Origin: a virus
Taxonomy: Duplodnaviria > Heunggongvirae > Uroviricota > Caudoviricetes
IMG/VR virus record: IMGVR_UViG_2526164690_000030
Reading direction: 5' to 3' (one strand)
DNA: 54,025 nucleotides
Shown here: positions 15,001 through 21,000 of the stretch, piece by piece
How positions within the stretch are numbered: position 1 is the stretch's first letter
How the letters are laid out: every line of letters starts with the position of its first letter
Position numbers: made by a program

Positions 15001-18000
15001 GACAAGCTCACCGGACGCTGACGCCAGGTAGACTGAGGAACAAATCCGCCGAAGATATTCTCAAGTTAGGGAAGAAAAAAGGCGGCACGTTCTTCACGCG
15101 AGACGACCTGAAAGGTTTCGAAAAGCTACGGAGTAAAACGCGCGAAAAATATGACAGCAAGACGGCTGGCATCACATACGCCCAGCTGGTGGCATCCAGC
15201 CAGGCAATCGATATTAAGCGTGCAAATAACGCCGTGGATGACGGATCTGGTATCAAAAGAGCTACACCCGTATCTCTTCGCCACAATGTGATTAATATCC
15301 GCGTAGAAGCATCGGATATATCCGTCCACCAGCACCATATCGTCCGGATACGCTTTGAAGAATGGGATCAGATGGTTGATGACATCGCAGAAGACGATAA
15401 ATCAGCTCTCAAAATCACTAAATCACTGTGCGCCGGGCGAGTGTCTTTCGATTGTGACTGTGGTCGTCATCAATACTGGTATCGTTACATCGCCACTGCG
15501 GGTAACTTTGCCCTGGCACCGCCAAAAGAATACGCCTATCCAAAAGTTCGCAACCCGAAGCTGCAAGGCGTCGCCTGTAAACACGTGATCCACTCAATGA
15601 CGCGGTTACAGTCCGCCAGTTGGCAAATGAGTATTGCTCGTGCGCTACAAAAGGCTGCAACGCAAATTGCATTTGGTGACGATCGCCGCCGTACAACCAA
15701 ACACTTCTCAAAAGAAGACGAGAAGGAGTTTAATCGCAATCGTAGCAGTAAAACGAACGTTGAAGCCGCCAAACGCGAATGGAGGCTCTATCAGAAGCGC
15801 CAGGCAGCTTTAAGTACAAAACTGGCAAAGGACAACGGCAAGATCGACAAGCTACGTGACCAATTGACCAGGGCCAGAAAGTTGTCAGACGCACAGAAAA
15901 AACGGGCGGCTGCAAAAGAAGCGGCCTTGCAACGTGAGAAACAGAAAAATAAGGAACTTCAGCAACGCCTTGCCGATCAGTTCGCACTGAAGAAGCAGGC
16001 GTTCATTGATGCGCTTGTCATGGCTGGAACGCCACAAGAACAGGCTGAGAAGATGTTTATAGAGTACGTGAAAAAAGCATAAACCACACATAGCCTAGTA
16101 GTTTATGCTGGGCTTTCATTTTTTTGAAAGATCAATTCCAGTATTATCAAACAAACTGGAAATATCAGACACCAATTTATTAAAATGCTTGTCATCATTA
16201 TAGAATGATGTGCTTTTTATAGCGACTATAAAATCACATAAATCTTGCGGAGATTCAATGCTAACCCCTGAGAGATCCCCTCATAATTTCCCCAAAGCGT
16301 AACCATGTGTGAATAAATTTTGAGCTAGTAGGGTTGCAGCCACGAGTAAGTCTTCCCTTGTTATTGTGTAGCCAGAATGCCGCAAAACTTCCATGCCTAA
16401 GCGAACTGTTGAGAGTACGTTTCGATTTCTGACTGTGTTAGCCTGGAAGTGCTTGTCCCAACCTTGTTTCTGAGCATGAACGCCCGCAAGCCAACATGTT
16501 AGTTGAAGCATCAGGGCGATTAGCAGCATGATATCAAAACGCTCTGAGCTGCTCGTTCGGCTATGGCGTAGGCCTAGTCCGTAGGCAGGACTTTTCAAGT
16601 CTCGGAAGGTTTCTTCAATCTGCATTCGCTTCGAATAGATATTAACAAGTTGTTTGGGTGTTCGAATTTCAACAGGTAAGTTAGTTGCTAGAACCCATGG
16701 CTCCTTTGCCGACGCTGAGTAGATTTTAGGTGACGGGTGGTGACAATGAGTCCGTGTCGAGCGCTGATTTTTTCGGCCTTTAGAGCGAGATTTATACAAT
16801 AGAATTTGGCATGAGATTGGATTGCTTTTAGTCAGCCTCTTATAGCCTAAAGTCTTTGAGTGACTAGATGACATATCATGTAAGTTGCTGATAGGTTTCC
16901 AGTTTTCCGCTCCTAGGTCTGCATATTGTACTTTTCCTCTTACTCGACTTAACCAGTACCAACCCAGCTTCTCAACGGATTTATACCATGGCACTTTAAA
17001 GCCAGCATCACTGACAATGAGCGGTGTGGTGTTACTCGGTAGAATGCTCGCAAGGTCGGCTAGAAATTGGTCATGAGCTTTCTTTGAACATTGCTCTGAA
17101 AGCGGGAACGCTTTCTCATAAAGAGTAACAGAACGACCGTGTAGTGCGACTGAAGCTCGCAATACCATAAGTCGTTTTTGCTCACGAATATCAGACCAGT
17201 CAACAAGTACAATGGGCATCGTATTGCCCGAACAGATAAAGCTAGCATGCCAACGGTATACAGCGAGTCGCTCTTTGTGGAGGTGACGATTACCTAACAA
17301 TCGGTCGATTCGTTTGATGTTATGTTTTGTTCTCGCTTTGGTTGGCAGGTTACGGCCAAGTTCGGTAAGAGTGAGAGTTTTACAGTCAAGTAATGCGTGG
17401 CAAGCCAACGTTAAGCTGTTGAGTCGTTTTAAGTGTAATTCGGGGCAGAATTGGTAAAGAGAGTCGTGTAAAATATCGAGTTCGCACATCTTGTTGTCTG
17501 ATTATTGATTTTTCGCGAAACCATTTGATCATATGACAAGATGTGTATCCACCTTAACTTAATGATTTTTACCAAAATCATTAGGGGATTCATCAGTGCT
17601 AACCCCCTTATTTTTATATAGTTCAATAATACTGCCAACATCAGAATGCAATAGTTTTATCGCGCCACAAATTTCTCGCTGTTTCGTAGCTAGGTCATTA
17701 AGTTTATTTTCATTTTCATCTAAGATTTGTTTTGAATATTTAGCGTCATTGGTTGCTTGATTTAACTTTGTTTTCTTTCTTTGCAATTCTATTCTTTTAT
17801 CATAATCAGCATCTTCATCTAAATATCTTATTTCAGTGTATAATTTACTTGTTAGCTTAGATATCTTCAGTGTGAGAATAGGAGCTAACACAGATGCAAA
17901 TACCCCATAACCAAATGGGATTACAAAGTGATAAACCCACGGGGATACAATCCAATTATCAAAGAACGGGACATTACCACCAACAAAAACAATAGATAAT

Positions 18001-21000
18001 GTATATAGGATGTCGTCCTTTGACTTTAATATAATTAAAATATCCTTCCAGTTAAAAATTAGAAAGAAATGACAACATATGCAAAAACCTTGTTAAATAT
18101 TTTATCTTTTATTATTTCAGAAAATGATTTTAGTTCTGTTTCATTTATAGACGGATTATCTTTAACTTTTTCTGACATCATAGCTTATCCTGATTACTTT
18201 TATTATGGATAGTTAAAAGATTCAACAGGTGATGGTGGCTGAATTGGGTAATGTTTCTTCTCGTACTCCTCAATGAGAAGACTCATAACCTCAAAGAAAT
18301 CACCTTCCGGAGTATTCATTTCCGGTTCGTTATCGAACATCGGTTTGACCGCACGCAGTGCGGCCTCATAATCTTGTTCTGTACGGATAGGTTTAATGTT
18401 CATTAATTACAAAGGAAAGCCCACTTGCTAAGTGGGCTTTTTGTATGTGTTTTACTATATCAGGCTGCTTTTTTATTCAGGTTCCGCTGAGAAATAAATT
18501 TTTCAGCAGTATTGATACGACTTAACTCTTCCTGAACGCGCATATCATTTTCGACTTCCCACAGATCTACTGCGGTCTGAAGATTAATCCAAAAATCTAC
18601 AGAAGTATCGAATGCTTTTGCCAGGCGATATGCCATATCCATCGTTAGCTTACGATTATTATTAACAAGAGCACTTACGGTGTTACGATGAACATGAAGT
18701 ATTTCTGCTAACTCGTTGATCTTCAGCTCTAACGGCTCCAGGTATTCGTACAGCAGGATATCACCTACGGTCGTCGGTTTTCTGGTTGCCTGTTTCATTT
18801 TTTGCCCTTACTAGCGTACGTATTAAGTGGACTCTGGTCAGAACCCGGTCCGTAACCGGGTATCTGTTTTAGTATTTGTGAGGGTCGAGATACAAGTCCT
18901 CGGCCTTTCCGTTAACCCACTTAAAAATTAACCTATATTGCTTATTCACCCTTACTGATGAATAGCCATTTAGCTTCCCTGACAGTTCCTCATACCGATT
19001 ACCTGGTGGTGATCTTAAATCCTTACAGGTAGTTGCGGCATTGATAATGTCCAACTTCCGTGACAATGTCATATGAATATCAGGAGGTATCTTTCTATGT
19101 GGTGTTGAAAATTCAAAAAAATCATCAAGCCACGCATCCCTGAAATCCTTTATGTTAATTTTTTGGTCATTAGTCATTTGATCCTCCGTGATGATTACCG
19201 AATGCCATAACTATAGCGCACTGTTGCACTGTGCGCAAGTGCATTTTATGAATTCCCCCTCCTTCATCCAAAATCACAATCTCCCGAAAATCTTCCTTTC
19301 GATACCTGACAGATCGACCTTTGAGGATGCTTATGGGCCGTTTTGACGAATGGTTTGCTGACGATGCAAACCTGGCAAGTAAGGAGTCAGAACATGACAG
19401 CACGCAGAGAGAAACGCCAGCGCCGATTGAAGCGAATGCAGGAGGCGCGCCGGAACATGGCAATACCGGTTCGGATTCATTCAGCATTCTGGAAGAGCAA
19501 CCCGCCGCCAAAGCTGATAGCCATGATAATTTTGCTGATAGCAACGGTGGCCTTACTCCGGATGCTGGCGAATCAGATATAGCCATACTTCCTCCTTCCC
19601 TGGCTGGCAGAGAACCAACTCCACAGCTAAAAGCACGCTATAACGGGCATAAAGCCTTTAACGACCAAATCCGCGCAGACTGGATGCTGATTATTGAATC
19701 CAGCCCAGACGCGTTTCAGGCTCTCTTATATCGACCAGATGTTGGCACATATGGGGTAGTCAGCGACGAAACAGGAGAAGAGTCATTCACTGAACTGGAT
19801 AACAACCAACGCGAACTGACTTACCAGGAACCTGAAATCGTTTATGTGCTGGATAACCCTGACGGGCGTGACTCTTTCCATGCGATTGACGCAGACGGTG
19901 AGCAGGATGGCTTAACCGATGATGTTCTGATTCTGCGTATTGCAGCAAATAACGTCCCCGTCGGCTCAATTCTTGAATGGAATGAAGAGATGGTAAACGG
20001 CGTAGCCCGCCGCTGGTGGTACGTGCACCGTATTTTTAGCTACGGCACACAGCATGTTGGTTCGCTTTACTACTGCATACCTGCCAGGAATTTTGATACG
20101 ACTCAAAACGGAGTGATCGAATGACTTCAAATAAAACCCTCCTGGCGCGAACCGGTGAATGGCAAACCTTACGCACAGGAAAATTCCAGACCACGGGCTT
20201 TGAAAACGTGGATAACGCGTTTGCGACGCTAATCAGCAACATTTTTTCTGATATCTTACTGGTGGCCCCCGCGCCGGAAGAAAAACGCTTTGCGTCATTC
20301 CTGAATCGTCCACCAGCAGAGCGTGTCTATATGGCCCGTTTCGACAATGCGATCGAGTTTCTTAAAGCAGTTCGTCGCGCAAATGCCGGGCAAGGGAGAA
20401 AACCTGAAAACCAGAACATTAACCGGGATGCTCTCCCCCTGGTCAATATCTCACGCACTATGGATATCAATTATATCAACGATGATCAGCAGATTGACCG
20501 CAAAAAAGTAGCCAGTTTTTGCGAACCAGATACCGGAACGCCTTTAGCAGAACTGGAATACACCCAGGCCATTCTGACGTATGACGTTACGTTAATGGCA
20601 ACTGATAAAGCGACCATGAGTCTGATGTGTAATTCGCTGGGCGCACGGCTTCGCCTGATGACAGGTACACAATTTGAAGCAACCACTCACCTTGTTCGTG
20701 TCCCGGTCCCGCTGATTTGCTCGATACAGGATGCCAAAGAAGTCGGCTTTACGGATGTTTCAGCACCAATTGGAGAAGAGCGTATTTATGCCACACAAGC
20801 GCCGATAAGTGTGATTGCAGACGTGATCACAGCATGGGAGTTGGACGCAAAACGTATTATTACCGAAACCTCGATATCTATGGGGTGATAAGTGGCCCAG
20901 GAGTTACAACAATATTTTCTACAGTCAGTGCTCATTAACGATAACAAAGTGCCACGAGACTGGATTTTTACCGCAGTATATGTAGAAAAAACCAGCCTCA

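What the first reader, a model, noticed from the sequence alone, without database searches (positions are those of the whole stretch)
16259..18200. IS10 inserted with perfect 9-bp duplication into an AT-rich membrane/coiled-coil gene
A complete 1329-bp IS10 is flanked by identical TGCTAACCC repeats, so this is a simple insertion. It cuts the 3' end of a minus-strand gene encoding two TM helices followed by a charged coiled-coil domain; the last ~17 codons lie on the far side of IS10. The 5' region of that gene also appears to need a frame change to join an ATGATG-initiated 40-codon ORF, so the gene may have been decaying or uses a frameshift. The composition and architecture resemble abortive-infection or exclusion proteins, which would here be inactivated.
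Basis: partly seen in the sequence, partly recalled or inferred. Interest (0 to 1): 0.55.

Follow-up and report, generated by a model that had tools for sequence, protein, structure and literature searches.

The report
IS10 insertion in a phage-plasmid accessory gene
A common jumping gene (IS10) has landed in a small membrane-protein gene of unknown function carried by a D6-like phage-plasmid of E. coli; this is an ordinary insertion, and the extra frame break in the gene is probably a sequencing error.

Summary
The core observation holds. A complete 1329-bp IS10 lies at 16268-17596, flanked by identical 9-bp repeats (TGCTAACCC). It has an intact 402-aa transposase and an RNA-OUT match.

Removing IS10 and one repeat restores a 729-nt minus-strand gene. 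Apart from one base, it is identical to an intact 242-aa hypothetical gene (WP_000986754.1) in 51 E. coli plasmids and 71 PLSDB plasmids, all about 90-kb D6-like phage-plasmids.

Two corrections:
- IS10 cuts off 47 codons, not about 17. This removes the family's conserved C-terminal domain.
- The frame break at 18063-18065 is one of six single-base deletions against a near-identical plasmid. All six are in homopolymers and all are shorter in the window. This looks like homopolymer under-calling, not gene decay or programmed frameshifting.

The gene is D6 orf73 (phrog_8191). It encodes two transmembrane helices, a long coiled coil and a small C-terminal domain, and is 29% GC. It sits behind toxin-antitoxin modules in an opposite-strand island that splits the tail operon. 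It matches no Pfam, PADLOC, NCBIfam or structural family, so an exclusion or abortive-infection role is a plausible guess that remains untested. The finding is ordinary and of low interest.

The parts
16259..16267 (.). Left copy of the 9-bp target-site duplication, TGCTAACCC
   Evidence: Identical to 17597-17605. Intact alleles carry a single copy.
16268..17596 (-). Complete IS10 (IS10R/ISVsa5 type), 1329 bp. The inside end is at 16268 and the outside end at 17596.
   Evidence: Both terminal sequences are found once each. Copies 100% identical occur in E. coli genomes, and the element is present in 1968 of 5426 genomes.
16281..17489 (-). IS10 transposase gene, intact, 402 aa
   Evidence: ORF listed. 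NCBIfam NF033591 IS4-family transposase, E=4.1e-121. The ATG is at nucleotide 108 from the outside end, read directly from the sequence.
17482..17551 (+). RNA-OUT, the IS10 antisense regulator, transcribed toward the outside end
   Evidence: Rfam RF00240, 98.8 bits (gathering score 41), full length 1-70/70.
17597..17605 (.). Right copy of the target-site duplication, TGCTAACCC. On the minus strand it covers codons Gly193-Val194-Ser195 of the gene.
17597..18181 (-). 5' part of the disrupted gene (codons 1-195 of the D6 orf73 homologue). As sequenced, it is broken at codon 41 by the missing base. The frame would otherwise run 12 codons into IS10 (…GVS-TDESPNDFGKNH*).
   Evidence: Translations. 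Identical to WP_000986754.1 apart from the indel.
18063..18065 (.). Frameshift site: AAA here, AAAA in all relatives examined (T4 to T3 on the coding strand; TCT TTT CTA becomes TCT TTC TAA)
   Evidence: Alignment. Run lengths are 3 in the window and 4 in L001, L013 and L016. It is one of six homopolymer -1 differences.
16116..16258 (-). 3' part of the disrupted gene: codons 196-242 plus the stop (TGA at 16116-16118). This is the conserved C-terminal two-helix domain.
   Evidence: Family alignment. AlphaFold helices 199-210 and 219-234.
18203..18403 (-). 66-codon remnant of an orphan HigA-like antitoxin gene (D6 orf72 is 119 aa). The HTH half was lost when this orf73 allele replaced the D6-type one.
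   Evidence: Alignment with D6. RefSeq annotates it as a partial HTH pseudogene. It matches PD-Lambda-2_B positions 1-65 of 402, E=3e-16.
18414..18442 (.). GC-rich hairpin, terminator-like on both strands, between higA and the antitoxin remnant
18460..19177 (-). higB-higA toxin-antitoxin pair in the same accessory island (HigA 18460-18798, HigB 18869-19177)
   Evidence: Pfam HigB-like_toxin E=4.7e-35 and HTH_3 E=7e-11.

Best explanation
Shown: a single active-type IS10 copy transposed by ordinary cut-and-paste into a near-consensus target, TGCTAACCC. My recollection of the known preference is NGCTNAGCN, which gives 5 of 6 specified bases. The target lies inside a 729-nt accessory gene of a D6-like phage-plasmid, and the insertion made the usual 9-bp duplication. 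It separates codons 1-195 from codons 196-242, so the family's conserved C-terminal domain is lost. The reading frame would end 12 codons inside IS10, so the gene is knocked out.

Shown: the target gene is the homologue of phage D6 orf73 (phrog_8191, WP_000986754.1). It is AT-rich and lies on the opposite strand to its neighbours. In P1, tail genes 25 and 7 abut directly. In D6-like elements the gene sits at the end of an approximately 3-kb island between the homologues of those two genes, always behind a toxin-antitoxin module.

Inferred from the family alignment, hydropathy and the AlphaFold model: the protein is a two-TM hairpin with both ends in the cytoplasm. The second TM helix continues into a cytoplasmic coiled-coil stalk of about 90 residues that carries a small two-helix head.

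Inferred, about 0.7: the second lesion, one base missing from a T4 run at codon 40/41, is a homopolymer sequencing or assembly error and not a mutation.

Inferred, about 0.35: the intact protein is a prophage-encoded membrane-anchored protection factor, acting in superinfection exclusion or abortive infection. If so, it is lost in this isolate.
For: IS10 anatomy.

Excision restores the intact allele:
- 51 of 51 E. coli records and 71 of 71 PLSDB records cover the reconstructed 790-bp query in one piece, at 95-99.9% identity.
- The aligned reference L001 differs from the query only by the 1-bp indel.

No record in either collection carries this IS10 junction.

Homopolymer pattern:
- Against NZ_CP077569.1 there are 2 substitutions and 6 single-base deletions over 43.8 kb, all in runs and all shorter in the window.
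- At the four sites that could be checked against further independent records, the window is the odd one out.
- The deletion at 43235 splits the ~1260-aa transglycosylase gene into 428 + 800 aa.

Gene identity and context:
- phrog_8191, E=4.9e-123, full length.
- D6 orf73 at 58.8% identity, at the same locus.
- P1 genes 25 and 7 abut.
- Alleles of 97, 58, 43 and 29% identity occupy the same slot behind HigB-like/HigA, HigB_toxin/HigA or ParE/HTH pairs.
- The flanking gene 25 homologue is 98.7% identical to D6's.
- Chromosomal relatives sit as single genes in prophage tail or recombinase regions.

Architecture: two hydropathy peaks, conserved TM motifs and C-terminal domain, and an AlphaFold model with pLDDT 77.7 showing helix 81-192 and a C-terminal head at 199-234.
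Against: Function:
- No match to any Pfam, NCBIfam or PADLOC family beyond coiled-coil noise.
- No Foldseek match in BFVD or the PDB.
- The protective role therefore rests only on architecture, AT-richness, allelic diversity and position.

Frameshift:
- Raw reads are not available, so a real mutation cannot be excluded.
- Other frameshifted alleles of this gene exist in public data (P0016, P0045), so genuine decay does occur in this family.

Topology is predicted, not measured.
Confidence: 0.85

Rival explanations
1. The frameshift is a genuine mutation. The gene was already a pseudogene, or became one, independently of IS10. This would reflect relaxed selection or selection against a costly membrane protein.
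For: The sequence as given carries the deletion. Other independently frameshifted alleles of the same gene exist (P0016 after codon 46, P0045 after codon 27). Two hits in one small gene would fit counter-selection.
Against: Five more -1 homopolymer differences, and only 2 substitutions, separate the window from a near-identical plasmid. They fall in intergenic DNA, at the higB start and in a large transglycosylase gene alike. The window is the odd one out against several independent records. This is the signature of systematic under-calling, not of selection on one gene.
Confidence: 0.27
2. The gene uses programmed ribosomal frameshifting to join the 40-codon ORF to the downstream frame.
For: Only that two overlapping frames exist in the window.
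Against: All 18 records at 99.9% identity differ from the reconstructed query only by a 1-base length difference, located by alignment to L001 in the A run. Those whose annotation was read list one continuous 242-codon CDS. The site (TCT TTC TAA) is not a canonical X XXY YYZ slippery heptamer (read; criterion from general knowledge). No conservation of a two-frame arrangement was seen.
Confidence: 0.01
3. The orf73-family protein is a functional third component of the adjacent toxin-antitoxin module, for example a membrane effector or sensor controlled by the HTH antitoxin, and not an independent gene.
For: In D6-like elements an orf73-family gene always follows a TA pair, even though the TA type changes. 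In D6 it lies directly downstream of an HTH antitoxin gene.
Against: In the window's lineage the adjacent antitoxin is reduced to a 66-aa remnant while orf73 stays intact in the 51 matching E. coli plasmid records and 71 PLSDB records (the two collections overlap). Chromosomal relatives have no TA neighbour. The 119-aa HigA pairs with a PF09907 HigB in L004, so it is an ordinary antitoxin.
Confidence: 0.1
4. The protein serves the phage itself, for example as a lysis-timing, membrane-remodelling or morphogenesis accessory, and does not protect the host.
For: It lies within a tail-gene region. It is a small membrane protein with a two-TM hairpin, an architecture that in my recollection also occurs in holin-type and lysis-regulator proteins.
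Against: It is on the opposite strand to the late operon and grouped with TA genes that are expressed in the prophage state. P1 lacks it entirely. Alleles are replaced wholesale while the flanks stay about 99% identical, which is typical of accessory morons. It is dispensable in this plasmid.
Confidence: 0.12

Closest known systems
IS10 (IS10R of Tn10, also called ISVsa5), IS4 family
   Same: Length of 1329 bp, both terminal sequences, a 402-aa DDE transposase starting at nucleotide 108, RNA-OUT, a 9-bp duplication and a near-consensus target. Copies 100% identical occur in many E. coli genomes.
   Different: Nothing of substance. It is a solitary copy, with no second IS10 and no tet genes in the window. 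This particular insertion site is not present in the plasmid or complete E. coli genome collections searched.
Phage D6 orf73 (ASR76396.1) / phrog_8191 / WP_000986754.1, hypothetical protein
   Same: Same length (242 aa), same locus between the gene 25-like and gene 7-like tail genes, and the same architecture. The phrog HMM match is full length, E=4.9e-123.
   Different: Only 58.8% identical to the D6 protein, while the flanking genes are about 99% identical. The window allele is interrupted by IS10 and, as sequenced, frameshifted. Its upstream neighbour (D6 orf72) is truncated.
Prophage superinfection-exclusion and single-gene abortive-infection membrane proteins (for example lambda/P22 SieB, T4 Imm, lactococcal Sie2009, AbiZ). 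This comparison is from memory of their architectures.
   Same: A small, AT-rich, stand-alone prophage gene encoding an N-terminal membrane anchor plus a soluble domain. It is located among accessory genes and shows high allelic diversity.
   Different: No detectable sequence, profile or fold similarity to any of them or to any PADLOC model. No phenotype is known.

Membership tests
IS10 (IS4 family insertion sequence) | Element of about 1329 bp bounded by the characteristic near-perfect terminal inverted repeats (CTGA(G/T)(A/G)(G/A)ATCCCCT…) | tested here: met
   16268-17596 is 1329 bp and both ends were found exactly once. 100% identity to annotated ISVsa5/IS10 copies.
IS10 (IS4 family insertion sequence) | Intact DDE transposase of 402 aa | tested here: met
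   ORF 16281-17489 (-), 402 aa. NF033591 E=4.1e-121 (cut-off 152 bits, score 404).
IS10 (IS4 family insertion sequence) | 9-bp direct target duplication | tested here: met
   TGCTAACCC on both sides. A single copy in intact alleles.
IS10 (IS4 family insertion sequence) | Antisense RNA-OUT overlapping the transposase start | tested here: met
   RF00240 at 17482-17551 (+), 98.8 bits.
IS10 (IS4 family insertion sequence) | Preference for the symmetric target NGCTNAGCN (consensus taken from the literature, from memory) | tested here: inconclusive
   TGCTAACCC matches 5 of the 6 specified bases, with G to C at position 7. This is read from the sequence. It is compatible with the preference but is not a test of mechanism.
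D6 orf73 family (phrog_8191) | Full-length similarity to the family profile | tested here: met
   phrog_8191 E=4.9e-123 over 1-242 of 242. 97% identity to cluster P0001 (535 members).
D6 orf73 family (phrog_8191) | Conserved position in D6-like phage-plasmids, between the gene 25-like and gene 7-like tail genes and downstream of a TA module | tested here: met
Known anti-phage defence / abortive-infection families (PADLOC-DB, Pfam Abi families, Pfam SieB) | Significant match to a family profile | tested here: not met
   The query's best PADLOC hit is LeoC, E=0.03, over the coiled coil only. For 24 family members, only scattered coiled-coil hits appear (LmuB, JetC, DruC), with none shared by more than 4 members. 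No Abi or SieB Pfam hit at E<=1.
Known anti-phage defence / abortive-infection families (PADLOC-DB, Pfam Abi families, Pfam SieB) | Protection phenotype against phage | not testable with these tools
   This needs expression of the intact allele and a phage challenge.
Programmed ribosomal frameshift gene | Two-frame arrangement conserved in relatives, with a slippery site | tested here: not met
   The relatives examined are single-frame. There is no canonical slippery heptamer at the site.
HigB/HigA type II toxin-antitoxin (neighbouring genes) | HigB-like RelE-fold toxin gene followed by an HTH antitoxin gene | tested here: met
   PF05015 E=4.7e-35 and PF01381 E=7e-11.

The most novel reading that the evidence does not exclude
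The D6 orf73 family could be an undescribed single-gene, membrane-anchored phage-exclusion or abortive-infection system. It has a two-TM hairpin, a cytoplasmic coiled-coil stalk and a small head domain. About 41 clusters at 50% identity were found among 1.84 billion representatives. It occupies a fixed accessory slot next to exchangeable toxin-antitoxin modules in D6-like phage-plasmids. The IS10-disrupted allele here would then be a natural knockout.
Probability: 0.3. Interest if true: 0.45.

Novelty: already known. Interest (0 to 1): 0.15.

Why it matters
As it stands, this is a routine IS10 insertion in a hypothetical gene.

The practical value is a caution. The window's assembly carries systematic one-base homopolymer losses. 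Apparent pseudogenes in it should therefore not be read as biology without the reads. This applies to this gene's 5' break and to the split transglycosylase gene.

The modest biological lead is the target gene family itself. It is a small, uncharacterised membrane/coiled-coil family. It holds a conserved accessory slot beside swappable toxin-antitoxin pairs inside the tail operon of D6-like phage-plasmids. If it proved to be an exclusion or defence gene, it would add one more single-gene system and a natural knockout to compare with more than 100 intact plasmids.

Tried and rejected
- Structure from a 2-sequence alignment gave pLDDT 51.8, so I did not use it. A 24-sequence alignment gave a usable model, but Foldseek against BFVD and the PDB found nothing with E<=0.001. 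The afdb50 library was unavailable.
- The reconstructed protein itself could not be submitted to the representative search or to structure prediction. I used P0001 (97% identical) instead.
- Pfam, PADLOC and NCBIfam scans of the query and of 24 family members gave only coiled-coil noise.
- 'Partial' database proteins (P0002, P0003) might have marked other IS insertions. Their contigs simply end inside the gene with no IS sequence, so this is uninformative, possibly a coverage drop in AT-rich DNA.
- The sigma-70 promoter scan of the island gave 8 sites against 9.1 expected, so it is uninformative.
- A 9-bp match (19171-19179) to the -22 box of P1 late promoters LP26/LPpmgL lacks a suitable -10 and overlaps the higB start codon. 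By my estimate about 0.4 such matches are expected by chance in the window, so I dropped it.
- Literature searches for the protein accession and for the locus found nothing specific.
- Programmed frameshifting was rejected (see rivals).
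Full report
**1. The observation**

- The window contains one complete IS10 at 16268-17596 (1329 bp). The two terminal sequences each occur exactly once, with none expected in shuffles.
- The transposase ORF (16281-17489, minus strand, 402 aa) is intact and scores 404 bits against the IS4-family model NF033591.
- Rfam finds a full-length RNA-OUT at 17482-17551 on the plus strand.
- Copies 100% identical occur in E. coli, and the element is present in 1968 of 5426 complete genomes.
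- The 9-bp sequence TGCTAACCC flanks it on both sides, at 16259-16267 and 17597-17605.
- There is no second IS10 end in the window, so this is a solitary IS and not Tn10.

**2. Excision test**

I removed IS10 and one repeat copy and searched with the 790-bp reconstruction.
- It matched 51 E. coli plasmids and 71 PLSDB plasmids (Escherichia, Salmonella, Shigella). All cover the whole query in one piece at 95-99.9% identity.
- The 18 best E. coli records (99.9%) span 791 bases against the 790-base query. Alignment to one of them (L001) shows a single extra base as the only difference within the gene.
- No record in either collection has this IS10 junction.
- The restored gene is annotated in RefSeq as a 242-aa hypothetical protein, WP_000986754.1.

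The insertion falls after Ser195. Codons 196-242, that is 47 codons and not about 17, lie at 16116-16258. The interrupted frame would read 12 codons into IS10 before a stop.

**3. The frame change**

- The window has AAA at 18063-18065 where the relatives examined have AAAA.
- Over 43.8 kb, the window differs from its nearest relative (plasmid p88_0502-2 of an O111:H11 strain, NZ_CP077569.1) by 2 substitutions and 6 single-base deletions. Every deletion is in a homopolymer and every run is shorter in the window: 10212, 13393, 18065, 19164, 43235 and 54012.
- At the four sites covered by further independent records (D6 and other plasmids and contigs), the window is always the odd one out.
- The deletions fall in intergenic DNA, at the higB start codon, in a tail-fibre segment, and in the ~1260-aa transglycosylase gene. 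That gene is split into 428 + 800 aa.
- A set of one-directional homopolymer changes with almost no substitutions is what systematic under-calling produces. It is not what selection on one gene produces.
- I put about 0.7 on artefact and about 0.27 on a genuine mutation. I reject programmed frameshifting, because the relatives are single-frame and there is no slippery heptamer.
- Genuine frameshift alleles of this gene do exist elsewhere (P0016, P0045), so real decay cannot be excluded without the reads.

**4. The target gene**

*Element and locus*
- The window is part of a D6-like phage-plasmid of about 90 kb. It carries tail, baseplate, sheath, repB, parM, glnS, rdgC, icd and Rha-type genes.
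- The only phage record with a homologue is D6: orf73, 242 aa, 58.8% identity, at the same position. The family is phrog_8191, of unknown function.
- In P1, tail genes 26-25-7-24-6-5 are contiguous, and genes 25 and 7 abut.
- In D6-like elements, an approximately 3-kb island on the opposite strand lies between the gene 25 and gene 7 homologues. It holds a toxin-antitoxin module followed by an orf73-family gene.
- The gene is 29% GC against 48% for the window.

*Alleles and neighbours*
- Four allele classes (97, 58, 43 and 29% identity to the cluster representative P0001; 97% also to the window allele) occupy this slot. They follow HigB-like/HigA, HigB_toxin(PF09907)/HigA-119aa or ParE/HTH pairs.
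- The neighbouring gene 25 homologue is 98.7% identical between the window and D6. This points to cassette replacement, not gradual divergence.
- In the window's lineage, the replacement removed the HTH half of the orphan antitoxin (D6 orf72). A 66-codon remnant is left at 18203-18403.

*Family size and other contexts*
- An exhaustive profile search of 1.84 billion representatives found only 41 clusters at E<=1e-3.
- Relatives outside phage-plasmids are single genes in chromosomal prophages. They lie next to serine recombinases or within P2-like tail clusters, with no conserved partner.

**5. Architecture**

- Hydropathy gives two peaks, centred at residues 41-45 and 94-96.
- The family alignment shows two conserved membrane segments: …FAYxxxSFLxxNW(Q/K)xILIL… and …LPxxxGxxASxxxPxxT… Next come a variable charged region and a moderately conserved C-terminal block, Y…IExxxD(L/F)xxFLxxVK….
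- AlphaFold with 24 sequences (pLDDT 77.7) models one continuous helix over residues 81-192 and a two-helix head at 199-234.
- Lys/Arg-rich segments precede TM1 and follow TM2. I therefore infer an N-in/C-in hairpin with a cytoplasmic stalk and head. This is a prediction.
- IS10 removes exactly the head domain.

**6. Function**

- There is no significant match in Pfam, NCBIfam or PADLOC for the query or for 24 family members. The only hits are scattered coiled-coil similarities.
- Foldseek against BFVD and the PDB finds nothing.
- It remains the most likely working model, at about 0.35. The reasons are that this is a stand-alone, AT-rich, prophage-borne membrane protein with wholesale allele replacement, in an island with genes expressed in the prophage state.
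- Alternatives are a TA-linked third component (about 0.1) and a phage-serving membrane function (about 0.12).

**7. Consequences of the insertion (inferred)**

- The gene is the last one on its strand and converges on the gene 25 homologue, whose terminator-like hairpin (16092-16114) is untouched. No polar effect on a downstream gene is expected.
- RNA-OUT and pOUT point out of the IS10 outside end, antisense to the 5' gene fragment (plus established IS10 biology).

**8. Verdict**

This is an ordinary IS10 insertion of a known kind. One interpretation, decay or frameshifting, is most likely an assembly artefact. The target gene family is uncharacterised and mildly interesting, but nothing here is surprising to a specialist.

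Noticed in passing
window 1-8870: A Tn3-family (Tn21-group) transposon carrying a class 1 integron: IstB fragment (62-478), sul1 (1282-2208, -), a 115-aa ORF (2115-2462, -) in the position where class 1 integrons carry qacEdelta1 (not scanned), aadA (2626-3636, -), intI1 (3566-4579, +), an EAL/DUF3330 protein (4518-5132), a 186-aa ORF (5308-5868) in the position of tnpR (not scanned), and a 988-aa Tn3-type transposase (5872-8838). Its terminal repeat ends at 8870. The nearest relative plasmid lacks it, so this D6-like phage-plasmid carries resistance genes.
   Followed up: partly
window 10212, 13393, 18063-18065, 19164, 43235, 54012: Six one-base homopolymer deletions relative to near-identical plasmids, with only two substitutions (29250, 42969) in 43.8 kb. 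This probably reflects systematic sequencing or assembly error and affects how any apparent pseudogene in this window should be read.
   Followed up: yes
window 42068-45849: The ~1260-aa transglycosylase gene of the reference plasmid is split into 428-aa and 800-aa ORFs by the homopolymer deletion at 43235. By position I infer it corresponds to the P1 sit gene.
   Followed up: partly
window 18203-18403 (-): A 66-codon remnant of an orphan HigA-like antitoxin (119 aa in D6 orf72). Its N-terminal domain matches the first 65 positions of PD-Lambda-2_B (E=3e-16). In another phage-plasmid the full 119-aa protein pairs with a PF09907 HigB toxin.
   Followed up: partly
D6-like loci L002, L003, L004-L006, L019 and window 16116-19177: The accessory slot between the gene 25-like and gene 7-like tail genes always holds a TA pair plus an orf73-family gene. 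The TA type varies (HigB-like/HigA, HigB_toxin/HigA, ParE/HTH), and the orf73 alleles differ by up to about 70%.
   Followed up: partly
window 19164-19177: The homopolymer deletion at the higB start shifts the annotated ATG out of frame. An upstream in-frame ATG (19177) keeps a 102-aa HigB ORF, against 100 aa in relatives.
   Followed up: partly
database proteins P0016, P0045, P0022: Other degraded alleles of the same gene exist in public assemblies: frameshifts after codons 46 and 27, and one chimeric 70-aa product.
   Followed up: no
window 18414-18442: A strong GC-rich hairpin with T-runs on both strands lies between higA and the antitoxin remnant. Transcription of the orf73-family gene may therefore depend on read-through or on an unrecognised promoter.
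   Followed up: no
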